A stretch of 64,000 bases of DNA, from NCBI RefSeq assembly GCF_053078305.1, contig NZ_CP166879.1. One strand, given 5' to 3'. Below the pieces are notes generated by a model. It saw only the letters and a program-made list of their open reading frames with translations, did not search any database and was not told the origin of the DNA. A program made the translations under genes and the position numbers. Within the stretch, counting starts at the first letter, position 1; each line of letters starts with the position of its first letter. Of this stretch, positions 52,656 through 64,000 are shown in pieces.

Positions 52656-53387
52656 ATGGCTGAATTACTGTTAGGCGTCAACATTGACCATATCGCTACG
52701 CTGCGCAACGCGCGCGGTACCGCTTACCCGGATCCGGTGCAGGCCGCGTTTATTGCCGAGCAGGCGGGGGCGGACGGCATTACCGTGCATTTACGTGAAG
52801 ATCGCCGCCACATTACTGACCGCGATGTGCGCATCCTGCGTCAGACGCTGGATACCCGCATGAATCTGGAGATGGCGGTGACCGAAGAGATGCTGGCGAT
52901 CGCGGTTGAGACGAAGCCGCATTTTTGCTGCCTGGTACCAGAAAAGCGTCAGGAAGTAACAACCGAAGGCGGCCTGGACGTTGCAGGGCAGCGTGAAAAA
53001 ATGCGCAATGCCTGCAAACGTCTGGCGGATGCCGGGATTCAGGTTTCTCTGTTTATCGACGCCGATGAAGAGCAGATCAAAGCTGCGGCAGAGGTTGGCG
53101 CACCGTTTATCGAGATCCACACCGGTTGCTATGCTGATGCCAAAACTGACGCCGAACAGGCGCAAGAGCTGGCGCGTATCGCCAAAGCCGCGACCTTTGC
53201 CGCTAGTCTCGGTTTGAAAGTTAACGCCGGACACGGTCTGACCTATCACAACGTAAAAGCCATTGCCGCCATCCCTGAGATGCACGAACTGAATATCGGT
53301 CATGCCATTATTGGTCGTGCAGTGATGACCGGACTGAAAGATGCGGTGGCAGAAATGAAGCGCCTGATGCTGGAAGCGCGTGGCTAA
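52656..53387 (+). CDS. pdxJ: Pyridoxine 5-prime-phosphate synthase
   Basis: [28 protein letters not shown]...; 243 aa from the internal ATG. Confidence 0.95.
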
Positions 53388-53767
53388 TGGCAATATTAGG
53401 TTTAGGCACGGATATCGTCGAGATCGCTCGCATAGAAGCAGTGATCGCCCGATCCGGTGAGCGCCTGGCACGCCGCGTATTAAGCGATAACGAATGGGAA
53501 ATTTGGAAAACGCACCACCAGCCGGTGCGTTTTCTGGCGAAACGCTTTGCCGTAAAAGAAGCCGCAGCAAAAGCGTTTGGCACCGGGATCCGCAATGGTC
53601 TGGCGTTTAATCAGTTTGAAGTATTTAACGATGAGCTTGGTAAGCCACGGCTGCGACTGTGGGGCGAGGCATTAAAACTGGCGGAAAAGCTGGGCGTTGC
53701 AAATATGCATGTGACGCTGGCCGATGAGCGCCACTATGCTTGCGCCACGGTAATTATTGAAAGTTAA
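53387..53767 (+). CDS. acpS: Holo-[acyl-carrier-protein] synthase
   Basis: 126-aa [39 protein letters not shown]... Confidence 0.96.
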
Positions 53768-53791
53768 AAATAATACCGTTCTCTTTAAAAA

Positions 53792-53835
53792 GTAAAACCC
53801 CCGAACTGGTAAGGAACGGGGGTTTTACTTTGTAA
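53792..53835 (+). terminator. acpS operon terminator
   Basis: GTAAAACCCCCG...CGGGGGTTTTAC hairpin followed by TTTGTAACTTT. Confidence 0.8.
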
Positions 53836-53844
53836 CTTTAATTT

Positions 53845-53868
53845 AGTGCAGCACGCACCCTCAACAAC
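53845..53868. repeat. 24-nt element, copy 1 of an imperfect direct repeat (second copy at 54093-54116)
   Basis: AGTGCAGCACGCACCCTCAACAAC; contains the internal palindrome GTGC...GCAC. Confidence 0.6.
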
Positions 53869-54092
53869 AGCGATTATGGATCAGGGTAGTTATCTTTTAC
53901 AAGCAACTTGCAATCTTTATCATAAAAACTCGAGCCTTTACGAAGAAAGCGATATTGATGGCAAGATTAACGTGACCGCCAATTCGTAAGTACATTAAAA
54001 TTGGTTTCGTTATTGGCGATTTTGCTGTGCTTTACACCATGCCACAGAATTCCCCCATTGAAACGAGTGGTGTCGTCAAAGCTCTGGTGTGG

Positions 54093-54116
54093 AGTGCAGC
54101 ATGCACCCTCAATAAC
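54093..54116. repeat. 24-nt element, copy 2 of the direct repeat, in the shoB upstream region
   Basis: AGTGCAGCATGCACCCTCAATAAC; 22 of 24 positions identical to copy 1. Confidence 0.6.
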
Positions 54117-54187
54117 TCGCACGTTCAGTTTTGGGGAGATGTAAGGGCTAATCTGAACGGCTGCATTCCTTGTTTAAGGAAAAACGA

Positions 54188-54268
54188 ATGACTGATTGCC
54201 GATACCTTATTAAACGGGCCATCAAAATCATCATTGCTGTTTTACAGCTGATCCTTCTGTTCTTATAA
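54188..54268 (+). CDS. shoB: Type I toxin ShoB, 26-aa hydrophobic peptide (below the ORF-track size cutoff)
   Basis: ATGACTGATTGCCGATACCTTATTAAACGG... translates to MTDCRYLIKRAIKIIIAVLQLILLFL; in the acpS-yfhL interval where shoB/ohsC lies in K-12. Confidence 0.85.
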   Translation: MTDCRYLIKRAIKIIIAVLQLILLFL

Positions 54269-54285
54269 CACAAGGAAACGTACTT

Positions 54286-54322
54286 AAGGTGCGTCCGGTG
54301 AACCAGTCGGACGCACCTTTAA
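54286..54322 (+). terminator. Putative shoB transcript terminator or stabilising hairpin
   Basis: AAGGTGCGTCCGGTGAACCAGTCGGACGCACCTT hairpin followed by a short T/A tract. Confidence 0.55.
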
Positions 54323-54462
54323 TAACTATAAATAAGTGTCTGGGCAGATACTATATAAATTAACTTAGTGAATGTTTATGCTAATAATCATCAATTAAAT
54401 AAATATAATAGCGTTAAGGTTTCCCTATAAAATAATTAATACTCTACTTCAGGAGCAGAATA

Positions 54463-54732
<270 letters not shown>

Positions 54733-54937
54733 TTACCGTTAAATTATTTTAAAATCAGTAAGTTGTATCGAGTTTGTATGCTTTACAGTTATTAACTTAC
54801 TGTATGTTGATCCAGTGTATTTAACCTTGATAAACTCAGTCCAGCAACACAAAACCGCAACACATTGCATTTTGTCCCGTAGAAAAGACTTGTATGTGTG
54901 AGCTTGTTTTCTGCGCCTACGCAGATAAGGATTGAGA

Positions 54938-56335
54938 ATGCCGCGCACTGTAACACATAATCCGGATAGCCCCAATAATGACGATGTTTTAGCCGCATCT
55001 GAAAAATGGGACGCCTGTAAACCCCCCTATACCAGCGCACACATAAAAATCTGTGTTGCTGCCGCCAAAATCATCCTCGCAGCTTCCGGCGTGGCTCGCC
55101 GTTCCAAATACGAAAAAGAGAACTATCTCCGTATCGATTTCAGCAAAGCCGGTAAGGTTACATTTTACGCCGAGTTTCCAAAAAAGATGGGCCTCAAGGG
55201 TAAAAAGCTCGGCGAGTGGCCGGAGCTCGCTATCCAGCTGGCGCGCGAAAAAGCGCTAGGTATGGCTGACTGTGGCTTGCGGGCAGAGTCCGTACATGCA
55301 GCGCTGGAAATGTACCGGGATGACCTCAAAGCCAAAGTCGCCCGGCAGAAGCTGAGCCCGGACAGTTTCACAACCTACGGGGTGCGTATCGACCGGATTA
55401 AAGCAACGTTCGGCGAGCGTGAGGTGTTCAGCGACGTAACATACAATCGGCTAGTGGAAGTGCTGGACGAGTGGATCGCCACTCGCTCGAACAATAACGC
55501 CCTGGAGTTGTTTGCCGAGCTCCGTCGGTTCTGGAAGTTCTGCGCACCTACTCTTTGTAACGGTCGCAATGTTGCTGCCAGTCTGCCAGATGATTATGTT
55601 TCCTCCCGCGTACAGAAACCCACCCCCACACGGCTTTTTACCGATATTGAGTCAATCGCCCGGCTCTGGCTCAATGTTGCCGCCTGCACCTCTGTACACC
55701 AGAAGAATGCTGTTCGCTTCATGATCATCACCGGCGTTCGTCCGATTAATGTCCATAACCTGCGCTGGGACTACGTTCACGAGGAGACTGGCGAAATTGT
55801 TTATCCTGAAGGGGTTATCGGCATGCGAGGGGCTATGAAAACACAAAAGGCTTTCCGCCTGCCAATAACGCCGGAGATCCGGCGGATTATCGACGAGCAG
55901 AAAGCATGGCGTGATTCAGTTCCTGAGTGCAACAGGGATTATGTATTTTTGCAGCCGCGTGATCCAATGCAGCCATTTTCAAAACGATCACTGGATAAGC
56001 TAGTGAAAACATACAGCCCGGATGGGGCTGTAAAAGGATTAAAACATGATGGGACTGTTAAAGGGAAAGACGGTGCATTTAATACGATGTGCCGTAAATT
56101 CCTTAAGAGCAATGTTATTGCCTTGATGAAGGAAAGAGGCTATTCCCGATCAGACCGAAGGGAAATCAGCCTCCTTTGCCTTCACCACTCCAGCAAGTCA
56201 GATGACCCGATGGCAGAACATTACGACTTTTCTGATGAGATTTTGCAGGAAGAGATTGCGTTAAAGCGCGAAGCTTTCGAGGCTCACGAGCGGAGCATAC
56301 TTGCGCAGGTGGCATTGCTACGGCGGCGAGGTTAA
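54938..56335 (+). CDS. Putative site-specific integrase (tyrosine recombinase-like, P4-type N-terminal domain)
   Basis: About 465-aa ORF at the island edge, convergent with an AlpA-like gene; N-terminal region resembles integrase arm-binding domains; start codon uncertain (TTG at 54932 or ATG at 54938). Confidence 0.6.
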   Translation: MPRTVTHNPDSPNNDDVLAASEKWDACKPPYTSAHIKICVAAAKIILAASGVARRSKYEKENYLRIDFSKAGKVTFYAEFPKKMGLKGKKLGEWPELAIQLAREKALGMADCGLRAESVHAALEMYRDDLKAKVARQKLSPDSFTTYGVRIDRIKATFGEREVFSDVTYNRLVEVLDEWIATRSNNNALELFAELRRFWKFCAPTLCNGRNVAASLPDDYVSSRVQKPTPTRLFTDIESIARLWLNVAACTSVHQKNAVRFMIITGVRPINVHNLRWDYVHEETGEIVYPEGVIGMRGAMKTQKAFRLPITPEIRRIIDEQKAWRDSVPECNRDYVFLQPRDPMQPFSKRSLDKLVKTYSPDGAVKGLKHDGTVKGKDGAFNTMCRKFLKSNVIALMKERGYSRSDRREISLLCLHHSSKSDDPMAEHYDFSDEILQEEIALKREAFEAHERSILAQVALLRRRG

Positions 56336-56532
56336 TACCGGCTGCGACACTTTTGAATAAAAGCGTCGACATTGCGGCGCTCATAACGAACTACTTTTGC
56401 ACTGAAACGAATTGGTGCCAGGATAGCCCGATGACGATGCTTAATATTCCACTCACATAGCGTTTTCTGTGTAATACCTAACTTTTGGCATACTTCATCC
56501 GGGGTGAGTAAATCGTCGGGTTTCTCGCTCAT
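56332..56532 (-). CDS. AlpA/excisionase-family small DNA-binding protein
   Basis: 66-aa ORF LLTPDEVCQKLGITQKTLCEWN with HTH-like pattern; overlaps the upstream helicase stop by 4 nt. Confidence 0.6.
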   Translation of the reverse strand: MSEKPDDLLTPDEVCQKLGITQKTLCEWNIKHRHRAILAPIRFSAKVVRYERRNVDAFIQKCRSRY

Positions 56533-57923
56533 GCTATACCTCTCTTTTTCATGGCATCGAGCAGGATGTCCTGCACTGTTCGTTTTGAGTTGCGCCGCTC
56601 CATCACCATTTCGTCCATAGTGTCGGCAGCAATAATGTGGTGAATAAATACCGGACGATTGTGTCCGGCTTGTATCTGCCTGGTGGGGCCGATACGTTCA
56701 ATAATTTGCTGATATTGCTCCAGGTCCCACCAGTGTGAGAAAAATACCAGTATATTTCCGCCGTCTTGCATGTTCAGGCCGTGGCCCGCGCTGGCTGGGT
56801 GTGCAAAGAGAACAGGAATCTTTCCGGAATTCCAGTCGCGCAGTGTCTGTGGATCCTGGTCGAGGTGACGACCGCGAGGGAATGCTTTAAGCAAGCGTTC
56901 AAGATCGTGTTTCCAGTGATAAGCAACCAGCACAGGTGCGCCAGCTGCTTCGGCCAGTATGCTGTCCAGCGCCTGTAGTTTGGTGTCATGCAGTTCTGAC
57001 CAACTTCCGGTGTCGTCTGTGTATACTGCGCCACTGGCGATTTGAAGACACTTCAGTGTCTTTGCCGCGGCGTTCGGTGCTTCGATGCCTTCGCCATTCA
57101 GCTCGAGGAACATTTCCTTTTCCATTTCACGATACTGCTGACGGGCCTTCGGGGGCATATCCACGCGGATTACGTTATGGATGGGGTCTTTGATATCGAA
57201 CCAGTCGGCCGCATCCAGCGAGAGGGTCACATCGGCTAACGCTCGCTGTATTTCACCCTGTGAGTGAGCAAAAGGCTCCAGTTTGGTCCAGCTCTGCCCC
57301 GGAAACTGTATCGATTTGAACCAGCGTGAGGTAAATGCGCCGTAAGTGCGCCCGAGACGTTGCCCCAGGTCCACAAACCACGATTGTCCCCACAAATCTA
57401 CCAGGCCGTTCGGTGCTGGCGTACCGGTGAGATTTATCCAGCGCCGGACATACTTGTGCGCCACTTTGCCCAGCGCCGCCGCGCGCTTACCACCACCTCG
57501 CAGCCGGAAGGATTTTAGCCGGGTGCTTTCATCTGGAATGACAGTACCGAACGGCCATCGTTCTCCCAATTCCTCAACCAGCCAGACAAGGTTATCGTAG
57601 TTGATGGTGAACACGCTCGCGTTGTTGTTCGCCAACGCTGCAGAGCGCGCTTTGGCATTACCAACAATTGGTTGTACCTCGATATTGCGCAAATGCCCCC
57701 ACTTCAGTGCTTCATCCGGCCAGGTGTTTGCTGCAACGCGTAGCGGCGCGAGGACCAGCGCGGGGCGTGTTTCTGCTCCAGCCATGAAAAGATCTTCCAG
57801 CGTGGTGAGTGTCGCTACGGTTTTACCCATCCCCATCCCTGCCCAGATGTTGCCGCGCAGAATGTCGGTTTGGTGATTGATTATGAGGTTTTGATAAAGT
57901 CGGGGGTGGAATATGTTATTCAT
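56529..57923 (-). CDS. Phage-type SNF2/DEAD-like helicase
   Basis: Walker A GMGMGKT, motif II DEST, C-terminal helicase domain; start placed at the Met of MNNIFHPRLYQ (ORF track extends to 57998). Confidence 0.8.
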   Translation of the reverse strand: MNNIFHPRLYQNLIINHQTDILRGNIWAGMGMGKTVATLTTLEDLFMAGAETRPALVLAPLRVAANTWPDEALKWGHLRNIEVQPIVGNAKARSAALANNNASVFTINYDNLVWLVEELGERWPFGTVIPDESTRLKSFRLRGGGKRAAALGKVAHKYVRRWINLTGTPAPNGLVDLWGQSWFVDLGQRLGRTYGAFTSRWFKSIQFPGQSWTKLEPFAHSQGEIQRALADVTLSLDAADWFDIKDPIHNVIRVDMPPKARQQYREMEKEMFLELNGEGIEAPNAAAKTLKCLQIASGAVYTDDTGSWSELHDTKLQALDSILAEAAGAPVLVAYHWKHDLERLLKAFPRGRHLDQDPQTLRDWNSGKIPVLFAHPASAGHGLNMQDGGNILVFFSHWWDLEQYQQIIERIGPTRQIQAGHNRPVFIHHIIAADTMDEMVMERRNSKRTVQDILLDAMKKRGIA

Positions 57924-57985
57924 TAATACACCTATGGTAGAATATGTGTCAATTCTCTCTCTATATATAACTAACGGAGGCGGGT

Positions 57986-58783
57986 ATGCCCCTGGCAAAA
58001 ATACTTACAAAACAAGTTTCTTTATTAACTGTTTTTTCAGCGTTAGCTTATGTGATGGCATATTCTTTTCAGAAAGGTGTTGCATCGTATTATGGCTATC
58101 CAGCCCTTTTTATTAAAATAGATTTAAATACGCTATTGTATTCGGCTGTATGGCTTTTGTTTTTTAGTTTTTTATTTCTCGGTGCCTTATACGCGACATT
58201 GATGTTTGATTTGAAAGGGAAATATTATGTTCCATTTATTATATTTATAGTGGTTATGCTAATACCTAATTTTTACATAATAGGATTCCATTGGCCTTTT
58301 GGTTATTTCTCAGAAACCTCTGTGATGAGTGTTGGAGATATTTTATTATTTGCTCTGCTTTTGTTGAATTACCACAATGCGGTGTCCGCGTCAATCCATA
58401 GTAAGAGACACGAACATCATATGGATAGCATTAGAAAATTTGGGAGGCTTGCAGAGTATAAAGACGTATTTTATTATATCGATTTAAAAATCCTAAAATC
58501 AGCTTTTCCTTTAGGGGTGATGACATTATTGATATTGAGCTATACCTTCGGGAAGGTTACTGCATTTAAAAATAACGAATATTATATGGTAGATGGTAGT
58601 AATACTAAAGTGTTGCTCAATTCATTTGGTAGTGGTTTTGTTGTTGGTGATTGTGAGTCCAATAGCGCAAAATTTGAATTTGTTAATGATTTAAAAGGGA
58701 TGAAATTCACAGTCATGTCCTCTAAAAAGGAAATAGCTAAATTAAAAGAGTGTTTCGAAACACGTGTTAAAAATACGGATTAA
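57986..58783 (+). CDS. Hypothetical polytopic membrane protein (265 aa), AT-rich cargo gene
   Basis: GGAGG 7 bp upstream of the ATG; about five predicted hydrophobic helices plus a roughly 70-aa hydrophilic C-terminus; divergent from the helicase; no family recognised. Confidence 0.65.
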   Translation: MPLAKILTKQVSLLTVFSALAYVMAYSFQKGVASYYGYPALFIKIDLNTLLYSAVWLLFFSFLFLGALYATLMFDLKGKYYVPFIIFIVVMLIPNFYIIGFHWPFGYFSETSVMSVGDILLFALLLLNYHNAVSASIHSKRHEHHMDSIRKFGRLAEYKDVFYYIDLKILKSAFPLGVMTLLILSYTFGKVTAFKNNEYYMVDGSNTKVLLNSFGSGFVVGDCESNSAKFEFVNDLKGMKFTVMSSKKEIAKLKECFETRVKNTD

Positions 58784-58795
58784 AGTATAAGTCTT

Positions 58796-59083
58796 TTATC
58801 TTTTATTGCGGCTTAAAATAATTTCCTCCAGATTTTTGCTATCCAGCACCACCACGGTAAAGCCCAGCTCGCGCAGCCGCTTGTGCTCGCGCAACTGGTC
58901 GGCGCGTGGTGCTTTGCCGGGTGCTTTGCATTCAACGAAAACAAGACGGCCGCCGGGTAGCAGAACAATGCGATCCGGTACCGAGCGGCGACCAGGTGAT
59001 ATGAACTTAAAGGCGACCCCACCAGCCTTTTTCACTTCGGCGACGAGATGCTTCTCGATTAGGTTTTCACGTTCATATATCAT
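58796..59083 (-). CDS. VRR-NUC domain nuclease
   Basis: 95-aa ORF with PDRIVLLPGGRLVFVECKAPGKAPRADQLREHKRL, matching the VRR-NUC pattern of PD...(D/E)xK with a conserved Q. Confidence 0.8.
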   Translation of the reverse strand: MIYERENLIEKHLVAEVKKAGGVAFKFISPGRRSVPDRIVLLPGGRLVFVECKAPGKAPRADQLREHKRLRELGFTVVVLDSKNLEEIILSRNKR

Positions 59084-59125
59084 ATGACGTTTCCTTTAGC
59101 CCTCTAGTTTGAGGGCTGGGAATCT

Positions 59126-59677
59126 TTAGCGACGGCTGGGATGAATTTTTTCACGGAGAACTAAGGTTAGTTGTTCTAGTGTCAATGGCTCGCCAAAATT
59201 CTCATGAAATAATGGATTGAATACATGCATCATGCGTTCGTATGTTGCCAGCGAAGGCGTGTGAGAATTAAGATCTCTTAATTTGAATTCTTCAAATCTA
59301 TCCAGTTTATTGATGACGAAATCAGCGGCTGCAAGATACTCAGTTTCGTTATTTCCATCGAATCCTTTGAATATTGGATTTTTTCCAAATAACTCAACAT
59401 TTTCTTTTAACTTCTTTTTTTCTTCTTCTGTAAGTTCACTGTAGCTATATTCAATAACTCTCCACATATCTAGGATGTCTAGAACTTTTTTTACAACACG
59501 TGGAGTTTCGGTATTTTTAAATGGAATACCACTAAATTTCCAAGGGAGTGCCCATGTTTGGTTTTCGAATATAGCATCACGGACAAATGTGTGATCGATT
59601 TCGCCTTCAATCTCGTTTTTATCGTACAGGTCACACAGCATCATTAGAATTAGTTTTTCGCCATCTGAAAGTTGCAT
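59126..59677 (-). CDS. YfbU-family (UPF0304) protein, 183 aa, AT-rich cargo gene
   Basis: MQLSDGEKLILMMLCDLYD..., FKGFDGNNETEYL, HTPSLATYERMMHVF align with remembered E. coli YfbU motifs (AQRLILSNQYKMM, FLGFDAATEARYL, QTPMWEKYQRML). Confidence 0.65.
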   Translation of the reverse strand: MQLSDGEKLILMMLCDLYDKNEIEGEIDHTFVRDAIFENQTWALPWKFSGIPFKNTETPRVVKKVLDILDMWRVIEYSYSELTEEEKKKLKENVELFGKNPIFKGFDGNNETEYLAAADFVINKLDRFEEFKLRDLNSHTPSLATYERMMHVFNPLFHENFGEPLTLEQLTLVLREKIHPSRR

Positions 59678-59682
59678 GTTTT

Positions 59683-60192
59683 TTATCCTTGAGTGTTAAA
59701 CGTTAAATCATCAACGAGTAGATCTATGTGAGGTTGAATAGCCAATATTTTTGCATGCAAAACTCTACCTGTTCTTAACTTTTCCGCAGGAGTTTTTGCA
59801 TCTGAAAGCTCAGAAATATTTTCCCTTATTTCAGCACAAAAATTTTCTGAGTCTATGCTCAATTTTACTTTATTGTTAGGTTTTATTGCTTGGGCTGCAA
59901 ATAAATCGATGAAATCCTCTATTTCAGAAATTATTGGTTCTAAACTTATGCCTCGAACATTTTCCTCATTCGAACCAGGACCAATTGCTCTTAGAGATTT
60001 TATGGCGGTTGATAACTTTCCATGAAGGTTGCCTGCGTCCCTTATACTACGTTGATAATTGACCGTAGCTAAAGCCTTTTGAGCTTCTGTGGCGGCATCC
60101 CGCGACTTTTTCCACCCCCATAGTGAACACATAGCACCAACTATGGTAACAAAAGTACCTATCCTTGATAGCCAGACATCTGTATTTTCCAT
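59683..60192 (-). CDS. Hypothetical membrane-anchored protein (169 aa), first gene of a two-gene cassette with the YfbU-family gene
   Basis: Single N-terminal hydrophobic helix (IGTFVTIVGAMCSLWGW) then a charged helical region; 5-nt gap to the downstream ORF; AT-rich. Confidence 0.6.
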   Translation of the reverse strand: MENTDVWLSRIGTFVTIVGAMCSLWGWKKSRDAATEAQKALATVNYQRSIRDAGNLHGKLSTAIKSLRAIGPGSNEENVRGISLEPIISEIEDFIDLFAAQAIKPNNKVKLSIDSENFCAEIRENISELSDAKTPAEKLRTGRVLHAKILAIQPHIDLLVDDLTFNTQG

Positions 60193-60277
60193 TAAAGCAC
60201 CAAAAACAATCTGTTAAGGATAGCTATATGATACATATATCTTCAATGATGTCATGTATCTGATTTGTGAGCTGTGA

Positions 60278-62341
60278 TCAGTCCTTACGGTAGTGGTACG
60301 CCTCAAAACCGCCAGCGTTCAGTGGGATATCGGGCGCCCATTCGGGGTTAGTGGAGAGAAGCGCGGAAAGCGCTTTATCGTTGAAATCTTCTGTGTCAGG
60401 TGCTTCGGTGATCACCTCGTCGTGTACCGTCAGCACAATGCTGTAACCGGCATCTTCGATAAGCGGCATGTTTCCGGCCAGAACGTCGCGGGCGGCCGCT
60501 TGGGTGACGTTCTCCACCAGCTTTCCGCCGTAGGTTTTGAGTCGTTGCCATTTACGTGAATAAGAGTTAACACCCATATAGGTGATATTCCCTTTTTCGA
60601 TAATCGGAGACGGGTAGCATACAGCGCGTCCAGATGGCAGCTGTATGCGCAGCCACGCGCCATCACGTCGGATTTTAAGATAGCCGCAATACAATGTTTT
60701 TTGCGGTGTGGCGATTGCAGTGCGGACGGTGCGCTCCAGTTCGTACCAGAAATCACAGGTCGCGGGATGCGCCCGGCGCCAGAGACGTTTAAGTGAGTCG
60801 CAGGCGATAAATACCCGTTCAGAAAGCCCGTAGGTTGACTTGCGTTTAACCGATTCGTCGTACCAGCTTTTCGCCTCGCGGATAACATCGCGGGGAATGT
60901 TTGGTAGTGCGGCGTTCGCCAGCTCGTCGAGATCGAGACCGTAAACCAGTGCAAAAGTGATGAAGGCCGACACACCACCACCATAACCCAGACCGAGTTC
61001 CATGACTTTACCGATCTGACGCATGTGTTTATCAACATCATCTGGTGCAATATCGAAAGCTTTTGCATACGCCAGTTTATATAAGTCCGGACCCGTTCCG
61101 GCGTCGTACTCTCTGAATGCATTCAGTTTCCATTCTTCTCCCGCCAGCCATGCCAGCATACGGCCTTCAATGTTCGACAAGTCACTTACCACCAGCTTTT
61201 TGCCTGTTGGCGCGATAATGCAGCCACGTAACGCTGAACTGGTTAGTTCCATGATATTGTCAAACAGCAGGTCTGCACATCCGGCTTTCAGTGCTTCGAT
61301 GCCTTCGTCTATTTGTTCCTGTTTTAGTGAAGGGCGGGGAAGGTTCTGGGGCTGGAATAGCCGTCCGGCCCAACGACCGGTACGTGACGCCCCGCAGAAC
61401 TGTAGCGTACCGCGTAAGCGCCCGTCGTGGCTTACGCCTTTCATCAGTGCCTTGTATTTACTGGTGCTGGTAGTACTGGCCTGCAGGCGGATAGCCAGCA
61501 GTTCTTTCACGGCAGATGGTAAATCGGGGTCGGCAATACGACGTTCCAGAGTACTGCGTTGCATGTCTGGTAGCTCCACACCGTAGGATTCAACAATGTG
61601 CTTAATCAACGCGTCTCGTTGTGTGGCTGCCTGCACTTCGCCATCAGTCATTTCCTGTGTACGCTTTGCCAGGCGCTTTTGTTCCTGGTCTACCGCGTCG
61701 ATCGCAGCGCGTGCGAGTTCCACGTCCATGCAGACGCCCCGGTCATTGATCTGCTGATCACGATGCCAGAGCGCCAGTTCTGTCCCCTGATAATTCCACT
61801 TCGGCAGACGTTTATAGACTTCGCGCATTGCCTCGATATCCAGTCCGGCGTAAGCAACAAAGCGCCGCCATTCTTCCGGGTGGGTTTTGCTGGTGGCCCG
61901 GCGCAGTTTGCTGTTTTTCGGGCGTGGCTTACAGAACAGCTGGATCAGCGCTTTACCTTCTTTGTCCTTCGCTTTGTCTTGCGGGACGCCTAGTACTTCG
62001 CAGAGTTCCCCCAGAGACCCCGGGAGACCGTGCGCCAGCGCCTGCACCATTGTGTCGCGCCAACGTTCGACTGGCGGTGCCAGGCGCGGCATTGCATAAC
62101 GCAGAACGGTGCGGTCGAAGTGAGAGTTATGGAAATAAAGCAGGGTTTCAGGGTCTGCGATTGCTTCGTATAAGCCGTGTGGAATACCACCACCGGCAGT
62201 GATATCCCACACGTTTACTGGCCCGTCGTTGATAGCCCATGCGAAAAGCATCACTTCAACGCCTTCGGCATACGCATGGGTACCGTTCGTAATAGGGATT
62301 TCGCAATAGGTTTCCAGGTCGCCCCATAGTATATTGGACAT
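60278..62341 (-). CDS. Phage-type family A DNA polymerase with 3-prime-5-prime exonuclease domain
   Basis: 687-aa ORF; Exo I DLETY; pol motifs DLSNIEGR (A), [16 protein letters not shown] (B), HDEVITE (C). Confidence 0.88.
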
Positions 62342-62387
62342 GTGTTTACCTTGGTTTTTATTCTATTAACTGATTAAAAGATTAATT

Positions 62388-63017
62388 ATGCATATGATCC
62401 AATACTTGATTGACCATACAGAGCATCTGGAGAAAATAGCTGGATATATTTTTTCATGTTTGATTGTTATGGGAGTCTGGATAAGAAAGATCATTTTTAA
62501 TTATAAGTATAAAGAGCCTAAATATGTCAAGAAGTTAATTTTATATTTAGTTAAGTATGAACGTTATCTGGATGAGGAGGATAAGAGTGCCATAGAAAAA
62601 AGAATAAATGATAAAATTATTCGTGATGCGCTGAAATTGCAATCCTCTTATAACCGAAGAGATGTTATTTACATTTGCAATAGATTAGAAAAAAGACAGT
62701 ATATAAATCAGTTGATTAAGCTTCAGAATTATATAGAGAAAGATAACGGAGTGTTTTTTATTAATGTTGATTTTTCAGGTTTTTTATTTATTATTAGTCG
62801 TCTGTTTTCCTTTCTGTGTTTTGTGCTGTTTACCCTTTTTTCTATTATCTGCATTATTTCCATAGGGCAAAATGAAGGCCTTTTAAATTATCTTGTGTAT
62901 ATGGTTATGATAATAGTTTTAGAGACTGTTGGTTTTTGGATGTATGATACTTTCCCGTCTAAGAAAAAGATCTGTGAACTAAATAAAGAATTGAGAAAGA
63001 TTAAGATTCCTGAGTGA
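62388..63017 (+). CDS. Hypothetical membrane protein (209 aa), very AT-rich cargo gene
   Basis: ORF divergent from the polymerase; predicted N-terminal helix and two C-terminal hydrophobic helices; Lys/Ile/Tyr-rich; no family recognised. Confidence 0.55.
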   Translation: MHMIQYLIDHTEHLEKIAGYIFSCLIVMGVWIRKIIFNYKYKEPKYVKKLILYLVKYERYLDEEDKSAIEKRINDKIIRDALKLQSSYNRRDVIYICNRLEKRQYINQLIKLQNYIEKDNGVFFINVDFSGFLFIISRLFSFLCFVLFTLFSIICIISIGQNEGLLNYLVYMVMIIVLETVGFWMYDTFPSKKKICELNKELRKIKIPE

Positions 63018-63069
63018 TTATACGCCTAATCAGTAGCCCGGTGTTTAACCGGGCGTCTATGAAGTAGGG

Positions 63070-63618
63070 TTAAATTAGTGCTTCAGCATCAGCACCTTCG
63101 CTGATATCGTCGAAATCGTCAGCGCTTGCCACTCCGCCGCCAGCGAATGCATCGCCGTCTCGCAGGAACTGGACTCCGCCGAGTGAGGCATTAATGCGTT
63201 TACCGAAATTATTGTCCTGTGCCCAGATATCGATAACGGCGTTTACATAGCACCCTGCATAGGGACGTCCGTCAGCCTGAATAAGTGGCGAACGATCGCG
63301 ATCAAGAACAGCTGGGCGCGCTTTGTTAGCAGCATTCAGGAAGAAATTACCGGGGAAGCCTTCATACTCTGCTTTTTCATCACCATCATGCAGGCACAGA
63401 TTGAGTTTTTTCTCCAGCTGGTTATAAATGGGCTCCCACTTCTCTCCCCATTTTTCCTTCGCTACCTGCTTCATAGCTTTACGGATTTCTTCCAGTTGTG
63501 GGTGTTTGGGAGACATTAAAAATACTGCGGAGAAACGCGGATCGCCTTCGCCGTTTACAGTTTTAGCTTCAAACAGAGACGGGAAGGCCAGACGAACATT
63601 GTTCAGCTTCAGTTTCAT
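63070..63618 (-). CDS. DUF2815-like phage replication-module protein
   Basis: 182-aa ORF MKLKLNNVRLAFPSLFEAK... with acidic C-terminal tail; sits between a DUF2800-like gene and the polymerase as in other phages. Confidence 0.6.
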   Translation of the reverse strand: MKLKLNNVRLAFPSLFEAKTVNGEGDPRFSAVFLMSPKHPQLEEIRKAMKQVAKEKWGEKWEPIYNQLEKKLNLCLHDGDEKAEYEGFPGNFFLNAANKARPAVLDRDRSPLIQADGRPYAGCYVNAVIDIWAQDNNFGKRINASLGGVQFLRDGDAFAGGGVASADDFDDISEGADAEALI

Positions 63619-63633
63619 GGGTATTTCCTTAAA

Positions 63634-64000
63634 TCAGATGAGGTCTGCGGTTAGCGTATCGTCGGATACGTCGTCGAAATCATTTACAGGGTTGATATTG
63701 AGTGCGGGGCGTGGGTCTGACTCGGGAACGACGGTTGGTTTACCATCAGCTCGTGTTATCAGTGCCTCGACTTTTGACCAACGGCGTGGACTGGCCTTTT
63801 TGATAAGTTTTTCGGCTTTTGTGGGACTAATAAGTTTAAAGTCGAATACTTCTTCAGTTTTGTACCTGAACTGGTCCTTCAGAAGTGCGCGAGCTGCCTC
63901 TTCATCACTCCAGGCCCGGTTACCTTGTTTTCCTGTTACCAGTTTAAACCCCGGTACCGGATGTCCGGCATTGAGTTCATTGTGAACCCGGTCCCGTACT
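63634..64000 (-). CDS. C-terminal part of a DUF2800-like (PD-(D/E)xK-type) phage protein; 5-prime end lies beyond the window
   Basis: Manual translation of the minus strand gives an open frame from the window end to TGA at 63634-63636 (...GKQGNRAWSDEEAARALLKDQF...VNDFDDVSDDTLTADLI); not in the ORF track because it has no start in the window. Confidence 0.5.
   Translation of the reverse strand, partial: VRDRVHNELNAGHPVPGFKLVTGKQGNRAWSDEEAARALLKDQFRYKTEEVFDFKLISPTKAEKLIKKASPRRWSKVEALITRADGKPTVVPESDPRPALNINPVNDFDDVSDDTLTADLI

What the first reader, a model, noticed from the sequence alone, without database searches (positions are those of the whole stretch)
54323..54462. Strongly AT-rich tract downstream of yfhL and shoB
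The roughly 140 bp between the shoB hairpin and the yfhL stop are dominated by A/T (for example TATAAATAAGTG...AATAAATATAATAGCG). The tract lies between two convergent genes. It could be a nucleoid-protein binding region or the remnant of an older insertion, and may be native to this locus.
Basis: seen in the sequence. Interest (0 to 1): 0.15.

Follow-up and report, generated by a model that had tools for sequence, protein, structure and literature searches.

The report
AT-rich spacer between shoB and yfhL
The AT-rich 140 bp is real but ordinary: it is the non-coding tail of an old, Escherichia-only insertion that brought the shoB/ohsC toxin-antitoxin pair between acpS and yfhL, and it holds transcript-end signals flanking a dispensable filler.

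Summary
Window 54323-54462 is 25% G+C, in the lowest 0.14% of 140-bp windows, and lies between convergent shoB (54188-54268, +) and yfhL (54463-54723, -).

It is native to the locus. K-12 carries it at 92% identity. It is single-copy in 5369 of 5426 complete E. coli genomes, and no feature was annotated under it in the records listed, apart from one 'hypothetical protein'.

In most other Enterobacteriaceae the acpS and yfhL stop codons overlap by 4 nt. Only Escherichia species carry the ~700-bp, 39% G+C insert that holds ohsC, shoB and this tract. The 'older insertion' idea is therefore right, but for the whole module.

Anatomy:
- The first 4 nt are the tail of the shoB terminator (published Term-seq 3' end, equivalent to window 54326).
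- The last ~36 nt belong to a strand-specific hairpin that starts at the yfhL stop codon, plus its U-rich tail. This is a candidate yfhL terminator or 3' stabiliser.
- The central ~100 bp has no conserved ORF, RNA family, repeat or protein-binding motif. It diverges quickly and tolerates a natural 77-bp deletion and IS insertions.

Published data place a Rho-dependent termination region on the yfhL strand here and score yfhL as H-NS-bound, though only at gene level. Interest is low.

The parts
53768..54462 (.). Escherichia-specific insert between the acpS stop and the yfhL stop (695 bp, 38.7% G+C). It holds ohsC, shoB and the AT-rich tract.
   Evidence: In most Enterobacteriaceae loci the acpS and yfhL stop codons overlap by 4 nt. 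Only Escherichia loci have a 618-715 bp spacer containing shoB. G+C. No phage relatives; the only 'plasmid' hits are 1.4-4.9 Mb Escherichia records that look like mislabelled chromosomes.
53789..53865 (-). ohsC antitoxin sRNA (context)
   Evidence: Rfam RF02495, 103 bits, E 4e-17.
54188..54268 (+). shoB type I toxin ORF, 26 aa (context)
   Evidence: ORF and translation. Annotated as shoB in K-12 and XH990.
54288..54326 (+). shoB intrinsic terminator: hairpin 54288-54317, tail UUUAAUAAC, RNA 3' end at 54326. It overlaps the first 4 nt of the flagged tract.
   Evidence: 13-bp stem (11 of its pairs lie inside 54288-54317) in the fold. Strong Term-seq 3' end at K-12 2700059(-) in three growth conditions (PMC7815308). 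One U-A to C-G compensatory change seen between alleles.
54327..54426 (.). Central AT-rich spacer (25% G+C): non-coding, fast-evolving and dispensable.
   Evidence: No conserved ORF, no Rfam hit, no repeats. Mean pairwise identity is 75% (minimum 55%), against 96% in shoB. A 77-bp deletion (54321-54397) occurs in Escherichia sp. MOD1-EC7003. IS1 is inserted with a 9-bp duplication AAATTAACT in TUM1881, and ISKpn26 in SCPM-O-B-9504. The site is used as a target site for engineered CAST insertion (PMC8464060).
54427..54466 (-). Hairpin on the yfhL-sense RNA that starts at the yfhL stop codon (arms 54466-54454 and 54448-54436, loop 54453-54449), followed by the U-rich tail UUAUUUUAU (54435-54427). 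Candidate yfhL terminator or 3' protective stem-loop.
   Evidence: Free energy is -12.4 kcal/mol (z -4.3) on the - strand and only -4.7 (z -0.9) on the + strand. The same fold appears in six divergent alleles. 94% of cells are paired, with 2 compensatory pairs and 14 G.U cells that pair only on the - strand.
54463..54723 (-). yfhL ferredoxin gene (context)
   Evidence: ORF; annotation in K-12 and XH990.

Best explanation
The tract is the non-coding 3' spacer shared by convergent shoB and yfhL. It forms the yfhL-side end of an ancient, Escherichia-specific AT-rich insertion (ohsC-shoB type I toxin-antitoxin module) that landed between acpS and yfhL, whose stop codons overlap in most other Enterobacteriaceae.

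How it most likely works:
1. The left edge finishes the shoB intrinsic terminator (shown by published Term-seq).
2. The right edge is an AU-rich hairpin that begins at the yfhL stop codon and is followed by a U-rich tail. I infer that it terminates yfhL transcripts or protects their 3' ends.
3. The ~100 bp between them carries no specific element and acts as filler. yfhL-strand transcription that escapes the hairpin is stopped by Rho around the antisense side of shoB (a published Rho-termination region, at coarse resolution). The DNA is probably coated by H-NS like other AT-rich acquired DNA (published evidence at gene level only; the rest is inferred).

The centre is under weak constraint. 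Composition and length persist, but the sequence drifts, is deleted, or takes up IS elements.
For: - Composition and position.
- Native and single-copy: K-12 at 92% identity; 5369 of 5426 genomes, 1-2 places per genome (median 1), never on plasmids.
- Insertion: the acpS and yfhL stops overlap by 4 nt in most Enterobacteriaceae genera sampled. GC-rich REP-like spacers of 82-106 bp occur in Salmonella arizonae and in Citrobacter sedlakii and C. koseri. Inserts of 618-715 bp with shoB occur only in Escherichia.
- shoB 3' end at the equivalent of window 54326.
- Rho termination region on the yfhL strand at K-12 2700120(+), Rho score 3.75, p 2e-8.
- yfhL hairpin is strand-specific and kept in all alleles.
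- The centre is dispensable and fast-evolving.
- No ORF, Rfam family, repeat or motif.
- yfhL is scored H-NS-bound in ChAP-seq.
Against: - The curated K-12 Term-seq list has no 3' end on the yfhL strand after the hairpin. The stem has only 2 G-C pairs, and the consensus terminator scan did not call it.
- The covariation statistics rest on 8 sequences and are weak: 47-56 of 500 shuffles do as well.
- The Rho region was defined with 800-nt windows, so it is not localised to the tract. The tract's yfhL-sense strand is not C-rich or G-poor.
- The H-NS evidence is gene-level, from any one of three strains, and does not resolve the tract.
- Length (139-140 nt) and G+C (24-29%) are kept across alleles that are only 55-65% identical. 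This could mean more constraint than 'filler' implies.
Confidence: 0.7

Rival explanations
1. The tract is a dedicated binding platform for a nucleoid or regulatory protein (H-NS, Fis, IHF or Nac) that actively regulates shoB and/or yfhL, rather than passive AT-rich DNA.
For: - yfhL is scored H-NS-bound.
- A Nac ChIP-seq peak lies inside yfhL. In the same Nac-overexpression data set shoB rose 82-fold and yfhL fell about 50-fold (PMC5217608).
- Composition and length are conserved despite sequence divergence.
- There are 26 TpA steps and several W-runs of at least 6.
Against: - The best match to the H-NS high-affinity site is 8 of 10, and there is only a chance-level IHF match.
- Sequence identity falls to 55-65% between alleles.
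- A 77-bp natural deletion and IS insertions are tolerated.
- The Nac peak is about 155 bp away, inside the gene, and comes from an overexpression experiment on two very small genes.
Confidence: 0.15
2. The tract hides an unannotated gene: a small RNA, a small protein, or a promoter that drives antisense transcription into shoB or yfhL.
For: - Three sigma-70-like hexamer pairs fall in the tract, at 54360-54388 (+), 54431-54402 (-) and 54378-54350 (-).
- Short ORFs of 20 and 24 codons lie on the + strand.
- One genome record annotates a 'hypothetical protein' here (H95).
Against: - Promoter-like hexamers are expected in 75% AT DNA.
- The 20-codon ORF is cut to 9 codons in K-12 by a 1-bp indel and substitutions.
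- There is no Rfam match at E up to 1.
- There is no curated Term-seq 3' end inside the tract other than the shoB end.
- The TSS tables I could reach were truncated or not held, so initiation was not tested.
Confidence: 0.05
3. The centre is the decayed relic of something that arrived with the module, such as a second toxin copy, an older gene or a mobile-element end, and is now eroding neutrally.
For: - The whole 695-bp block is a lineage-specific insertion of low G+C.
- Divergence is very high and a deletion is present.
- The acpS-yfhL junction has taken other insertions elsewhere: a transporter gene in Yersinia and an IS200-like transposase in Y. pestis.
Against: - There are no terminal inverted or direct repeats, and no internal similarity to shoB or its UTR.
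- There are no phage relatives, and the only 'plasmid' hits are Mb-size Escherichia records.
- No ORF remnant is recognisable.
- 100 bp of 25% G+C DNA is too short and too biased for any homology test to succeed, so this can be neither shown nor excluded.
Confidence: 0.1

Closest known systems
Intergenic 3' regions of convergent genes with back-to-back or bidirectional terminators (E. coli Term-seq and SMRT-Cappable-seq literature)
   Same: Two convergent genes each have a stem-loop at their own end. The shoB hairpin has an experimentally mapped 3' end. The yfhL-strand read-through is Rho-dependent.
   Different: The two hairpins are separated by ~100 bp of extremely AT-rich filler rather than being adjacent or shared. 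The yfhL hairpin is AU-rich, overlaps the stop codon, and has no mapped 3' end.
H-NS-bound, horizontally acquired AT-rich DNA (xenogeneic silencing; Higashi et al. 2016, PMC4720273)
   Same: The DNA has low G+C, was acquired in one lineage, evolves faster than its flanks, and the neighbouring gene yfhL is scored H-NS-bound.
   Different: It is only 140 bp (695 bp for the whole module), far smaller than typical silenced islands. Occupancy of the tract itself is not shown, and there is no high-affinity nucleation motif.
shoB-ohsC type I toxin-antitoxin locus (Fozo et al. 2008, 2010; PMC2887945; PMC11264685)
   Same: The tract is physically part of the same Escherichia-restricted insertion and begins at the 3' end of the shoB mRNA.
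   Different: Published descriptions of the locus stop at the shoB ORF or terminator. The tract has no known role in OhsC-shoB pairing, which maps to 53845-53868 and 54093-54116.
REP/BIME extragenic repeats that fill the same acpS-yfhL junction in Salmonella and Citrobacter
   Same: They occupy the same position between the two stop codons and are non-coding.
   Different: Those spacers are GC-rich palindromic units. The Escherichia tract is AT-rich, non-palindromic and single-copy.

Membership tests
Rho-independent terminator (shoB, + strand) | Stable stem-loop just downstream of the gene | tested here: met
   13-bp stem spanning 54286-54319 (core hairpin 54288-54317) in the fold; inverted repeat I3.
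Rho-independent terminator (shoB, + strand) | RNA 3' end mapped a few nt after the stem | tested here: met
   Published Term-seq 3' end at K-12 2700059(-), equivalent to window 54326, 9 nt after the stem, in three conditions.
Rho-independent terminator (shoB, + strand) | U-rich tract after the stem | tested here: inconclusive
   The tail is UUUAAUAAC, with only three consecutive U. The consensus scan did not call it.
Rho-independent terminator (yfhL hairpin, - strand) | Strand-specific stem-loop immediately after the stop codon | tested here: met
   13-bp stem starting at the stop codon. Free energy -12.4 kcal/mol (z -4.3) on the - strand against -4.7 (z -0.9) on the + strand.
Rho-independent terminator (yfhL hairpin, - strand) | G+C-rich stem | tested here: not met
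   Only 2 G-C pairs plus 2 G.U pairs out of 13. It falls below the scan's minimum of 3 G-C pairs.
Rho-independent terminator (yfhL hairpin, - strand) | U-rich tail | tested here: met
   UUAUUUUAU (7 of 9 U) in the window; weaker in K-12, UUAUAUUAC (5 of 9).
Rho-independent terminator (yfhL hairpin, - strand) | Structure conserved by covariation | tested here: inconclusive
   94% of cells are paired and 2 pairs show compensatory changes, but 47-56 of 500 shuffles do as well, with only 8 sequences.
Rho-independent terminator (yfhL hairpin, - strand) | Mapped RNA 3' end at the tail | tested here: not met
   No + strand 3' end at 26999xx-27000xx in the curated K-12 Term-seq tables. yfhL may simply be too weakly expressed to register.
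H-NS-bound acquired AT-rich DNA | G+C well below the genome average | tested here: met
   25% against 50.2%.
H-NS-bound acquired AT-rich DNA | Lineage-specific presence (acquired) | tested here: met
   The insert is found only in Escherichia; the stop codons overlap in most other Enterobacteriaceae sampled.
H-NS-bound acquired AT-rich DNA | H-NS occupancy in vivo | tested here: inconclusive
   yfhL is scored H-NS-bound in ChAP-seq of SE11, SE15 or K-12, at gene level only. No coordinate table was accessible.
H-NS-bound acquired AT-rich DNA | High-affinity nucleation motif TCGATAAATT (consensus recalled from Lang et al. 2007) | tested here: not met
   The best match in the tract has 2 mismatches (54352-54361), which is unremarkable.
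Repeated extragenic element (REP/BIME/MITE) | Many copies per genome | tested here: not met
   1-2 places per genome, median 1.
IS or transposon remnant | Terminal inverted repeats, target duplication or transposase fragments | tested here: not met
   No such repeats bound the insert or the tract. There is no long ORF.
Known RNA family (Rfam 15) | Covariance-model match | tested here: not met
   Only ohsC matches in 53000-56000. Nothing matches in the tract at E up to 1.
Small protein gene | ORF conserved between alleles | tested here: not met
   The 20-codon ORF 54368-54430 is truncated to 9 codons in K-12.

The most novel reading that the evidence does not exclude
The tract could be a selected 'insulator' whose length and composition, rather than sequence, are under constraint: 139-140 nt and 24-29% G+C are kept while sequence identity falls to 55-65%. 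Together with H-NS and Rho it would set how much convergent yfhL transcription runs antisense into the shoB toxin gene. Toxin mRNA level would then be coupled to yfhL promoter activity. The opposite changes of shoB (+82-fold) and yfhL (-50-fold) on Nac overexpression would fit such coupling.
Probability: 0.08. Interest if true: 0.4.

Novelty: new member of a known kind. Interest (0 to 1): 0.12.

Why it matters
It matters little. The result closes a low-priority flag: the tract is native Escherichia DNA, not a strain-specific anomaly.

Three modest by-products came out of the work:
- The shoB/ohsC module, including this tract, can be delimited as a 695-bp insertion between two stop codons that overlap in most other Enterobacteriaceae. 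This dates the module to the Escherichia lineage and gives its exact borders.
- yfhL has an unannotated stop-codon-overlapping hairpin that may define its 3' end.
- The centre tolerates natural deletion and IS insertion. This fits its use as a target site for engineered chromosomal insertion.

Tried and rejected
- **Motif scans.** The H-NS high-affinity site and the IHF consensus gave chance-level results only.
- **Consensus promoter and terminator scan.** It found neither hairpin in the tract and only weak promoter-like hexamers, as expected in AT-rich DNA.
- **Rfam at a permissive threshold.** Nothing matched in the tract.
- **Repeat search for insertion scars.** None found.
- **Plasmid and phage searches for the origin of the module.** The only hits were mislabelled chromosomes.
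- **TSS and other transcript data.**
  - The Cappable-seq table was truncated at about 270 kb.
  - The SMRT-Cappable-seq supplements held nothing for this locus.
  - Supplements of Dar & Sorek 2018, Kahramanoglou 2011 and Melamed 2016 are not held.
  - Thomason 2015 and Fozo 2008 are not held at all.
- **Rho loading site.** I looked for a C-rich, G-poor segment on the yfhL-sense strand of the tract and found none. The first such segment lies beyond shoB, at about 54200 and below.
- **Small-ORF reading.** Rejected because the frame is not conserved in K-12.

Full report
**1. Observation**

Window 54323-54462 is 140 bp with A58 C17 G18 T47, i.e. 25% G+C. The 64-kb window averages 50.2%, and only 0.14% of its 140-bp windows are as AT-rich.

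The surrounding map is pdxJ, acpS (53387-53767, +), ohsC (53789-53865, -; Rfam 103 bits), shoB (54188-54268, +), the tract, and yfhL (54463-54723, -).

**2. Native or strain-specific**

- K-12 MG1655 has the same tract at 92% identity. All differences lie in the yfhL-proximal half.
- Megablast finds the tract in 4811 of 5426 complete E. coli genomes. The more sensitive blastn finds it in 5369, with 1-2 places per genome (median 1) and none on plasmids.
- No feature is annotated under it, apart from one 'hypothetical protein' in a single record.
- The wider acpS-yfhL locus is present in 5425 of 5426 genomes.
- By identity to the window, 92 genomes are at 99% or more, 4704 at 90-95% (the K-12 type) and 527 at only 60-80%. 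The species therefore carries two deeply diverged alleles of this small region, while the flanking coding sequence stays above 97% identical.

**3. Where it came from**

A degenerate DNA pattern for the YfhL peptide [10 protein letters not shown] retrieved 90 loci from the species-representative genome collection.

- In most Enterobacteriaceae loci sampled (among them Klebsiella, Raoultella, Kosakonia, Buttiauxella, Pseudescherichia, Superficieibacter and Siccibacter; most but not all Enterobacter, Raoultella, Kosakonia and Citrobacter loci, a few of which have 18-263 bp spacers), the acpS and yfhL stop codons overlap by 4 nt (TTAA or TTAG). There is no intergenic DNA at all.
- Salmonella arizonae, Citrobacter sedlakii and C. 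koseri have GC-rich, REP-like spacers of 82-106 bp.
- Only Escherichia loci have 618-715 bp of 38-41% G+C DNA that contains shoB. These are E. coli, E. albertii, E. whittamii and Escherichia spp. E1V33 and MOD1-EC7003.
- In the window this insert is 53768-54462, 695 bp at 38.7% G+C.
- This agrees with the published statement that ShoB is confined to E. coli and close relatives (PMC2887945).
- No terminal repeats bound the insert.
- It has no relatives in the phage collection. The four hits in the plasmid collection are Escherichia records of 1.4-4.9 Mb that look like mislabelled chromosomes.

The 'remnant of an older insertion' idea is therefore right for the whole ohsC-shoB module, and the tract is its yfhL-side end.

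**4. Anatomy of the tract**

*Left edge.* The shoB hairpin is at 54288-54317 and is followed by UUUAAUAAC. Published Term-seq reports a strong 3' end at K-12 2700059(-) in LB at OD 0.4, LB at OD 2.0 and M63 medium (PMC7815308). This maps to window 54326, so the first 4 nt of the flagged tract are still shoB mRNA.

*Right edge.* On the yfhL-sense strand, a 13-bp AU-rich stem begins at the last base of the final Ile codon and includes the stop codon. Its arms are 54466-54454 and 54448-54436, the loop is 54453-54449, and the tail UUAUUUUAU is at 54435-54427.
- It folds at -12.4 kcal/mol (z -4.3) on the yfhL-sense strand, but only -4.7 (z -0.9) on the opposite strand.
- The same fold is predicted for six divergent alleles, at -8.2 to -15.8 kcal/mol.
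- Across eight alleles, 94% of cells are paired and two pairs show compensatory double changes (for example UCUACU/AGUAGA in K-12 against CCUGCU/AGCAGG in E. whittamii). Fourteen cells are G.U wobbles that would be A.C mismatches on the other strand.
- With only eight sequences the shuffle control is weak: 47-56 of 500 shuffles do as well.

I read this as a candidate yfhL terminator, or as the protective stem-loop to which Rho-terminated transcripts are trimmed back. That second mechanism is described in general by Dar & Sorek 2018, which I cite from my own knowledge of the paper. Against this reading, the stem has only two G-C pairs, the consensus scan did not call it, and the curated K-12 Term-seq tables list no 3' end there.

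*Centre (54327-54426).*
- There is no conserved ORF. The 20-codon ORF at 54368-54430 shrinks to 9 codons in K-12.
- There is no Rfam match and no repeat.
- There is no H-NS high-affinity or IHF consensus above chance.
- Mean pairwise identity among Escherichia alleles is 75% (minimum 55%), against 96% in shoB.
- Escherichia sp. MOD1-EC7003 lacks 77 bp (window 54321-54397), deleted between AATAA direct repeats.
- E. coli TUM1881 carries IS1 here with a 9-bp target duplication, AAATTAACT. Strain SCPM-O-B-9504 carries ISKpn26 with loss of shoB.
- The yfhL-shoB interval has been used as one of eight target sites for CRISPR-transposon insertion (PMC8464060).

One feature is not fully explained by 'filler'. 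Length (139-140 nt) and G+C (24-29%) are kept in every allele except the one with the deletion.

**5. Transcript and binding evidence from the literature**

- *Rho.* The same eLife study lists a Rho termination region whose best coordinate is 2700120 on the yfhL strand, antisense to the shoB stop codon and equivalent to window ~54265. The Rho score is 3.75 and p is 2.3e-8. It was computed with 800-nt windows, so it shows only that yfhL-strand transcription through this neighbourhood is Rho-limited. It does not show where Rho loads. The yfhL-sense strand of the tract is poor in both C and G, and the first C-rich, G-poor stretch lies beyond shoB.
- *H-NS.* The ChAP-seq table of Higashi et al. 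scores yfhL as H-NS-bound, including under the stricter definition that excludes marginal 3' overlaps. The call is per gene and applies to any one of three strains.
- *Nac.* A Nac ChIP-seq peak (U00096.2 coordinate 2697790) falls inside yfhL, about 155 bp from its stop codon. In that Nac-overexpression data set shoB rose 82-fold and yfhL fell about 50-fold. This is curious but may be noise on two very small genes.
- *TSS data.* The transcription-start tables that I could reach were either truncated or absent.

**6. Interpretation**

The best-supported reading is that the tract is the shared 3' spacer of convergent shoB and yfhL inside an old, Escherichia-specific AT-rich insertion. Its two ends carry the transcript-end signals of the two genes. 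Its centre is weakly constrained, dispensable AT-rich DNA, probably H-NS-coated, lying in a zone where Rho stops yfhL-strand read-through.

What is shown:
- the composition;
- nativeness to the locus;
- the insertion history;
- the shoB 3' end;
- the strand-specific hairpin;
- dispensability of the centre.

What is inferred:
- that the hairpin acts as a terminator or stabiliser;
- that H-NS occupies the tract itself;
- that the tract has any insulating role.

The rivals are a dedicated regulatory binding site, a hidden transcript or small ORF, and the relic of a decayed element. None is excluded, and none has positive support beyond what AT-richness alone would give.

**7. Novelty and score**

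Every component is of a well-known kind. The sequence is in K-12, and the locus has been studied as the shoB/ohsC toxin-antitoxin system, although published analyses stop at the shoB ORF (PMC11264685). The small new points are the exact borders of the insertion, the unannotated yfhL hairpin, and the two allele classes.

Interest is 0.12. The most novel reading not excluded is a composition- and length-constrained insulator that couples yfhL transcription to toxin mRNA. I give it about 8% probability, and it would be of moderate interest if true.

Noticed in passing
window 54713-64000 (integrase ORF 54932-56335 +): Homology to most E. coli genomes stops about 10 nt inside the 5' end of yfhL. 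Beyond that point K-12 and XH990 have yfhH, whereas the window has a prophage-like block. It encodes a tyrosine integrase, an SNF2 helicase, a YfbU-domain protein, a family A DNA polymerase and an Enc34-type ssDNA-binding protein. The element supplies new first codons for YfhL (MSLLITKR against K-12 MALLITKK). yfhL is a reported Stx2b prophage insertion site (PMC12029490)..
   Followed up: partly
loci L007-L096 (e.g. L034, L089, L087, L017): In most Enterobacteriaceae the convergent acpS and yfhL genes overlap by 4 nt at their stop codons (TTAA or TTAG). Each gene must therefore terminate inside the other's coding sequence..
   Followed up: yes
L030, L048, L094; L011, L014, L052, L059, L070, L071, L081, L083; L032: The acpS-yfhL junction has repeatedly taken up DNA. 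Salmonella arizonae and Citrobacter sedlakii and C. koseri have GC-rich REP-like units. Several Yersinia species have ~1.85 kb containing a 447-aa membrane protein gene. Y. pestis has an IS200-like transposase ORF downstream of yfhL..
   Followed up: partly
window 54323-54462 against E. coli genomes (e.g. L003 KK19-02; H96-H98): There is a sharp allelic dimorphism. 527 of 5426 E. coli genomes carry a tract only 60-80% identical to the window, although the flanking shoB and yfhL coding sequences are at least 97% identical. The minority allele shares its shoB terminator variant with E. albertii and E. whittamii, which suggests an old polymorphism or import by recombination..
   Followed up: partly
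L050 (Escherichia sp. MOD1-EC7003), equivalent to window 54321-54397: A natural 77-bp deletion of the left and central part of the tract lies between AATAA direct repeats. It leaves the shoB terminator stem and the yfhL hairpin intact..
   Followed up: yes
L004 (TUM1881) and L005 (SCPM-O-B-9504): IS1 is inserted in the tract with a 9-bp target duplication, AAATTAACT (window ~54357-54365). In another strain an IS5-family ISKpn26 occupies the region, with loss of shoB..
   Followed up: yes
window 53845-53868 and 54093-54116: A 24-nt direct repeat (92% identity) lies within ohsC and within the shoB 5' UTR. It corresponds to the OhsC-shoB base-pairing region. A weaker third copy overlaps the shoB terminator (54303-54326, 63%)..
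   Followed up: no
window 54188-54268: ShoB in this strain is MTDCRYLIKRAIKIIIAVLQLILLFL, i.e. V11A relative to K-12. The same variant occurs in XH990 and in Escherichia sp. E1V33..
   Followed up: no
K-12 yfhL/shoB (PMC5217608 Table 1): On Nac overexpression shoB was among the most induced genes (82-fold) and the adjacent convergent yfhL among the most repressed (0.019-fold). Both are assigned to the same ChIP-seq peak inside yfhL. This may be noise on tiny genes, or a hint of convergent-transcription cross-talk..
   Followed up: no
plasmid collection hits H56-H59: Four records in the plasmid collection that match the locus are 1.4-4.9 Mb long and non-mobilizable. They appear to be chromosomes mislabelled as plasmids..
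   Followed up: no
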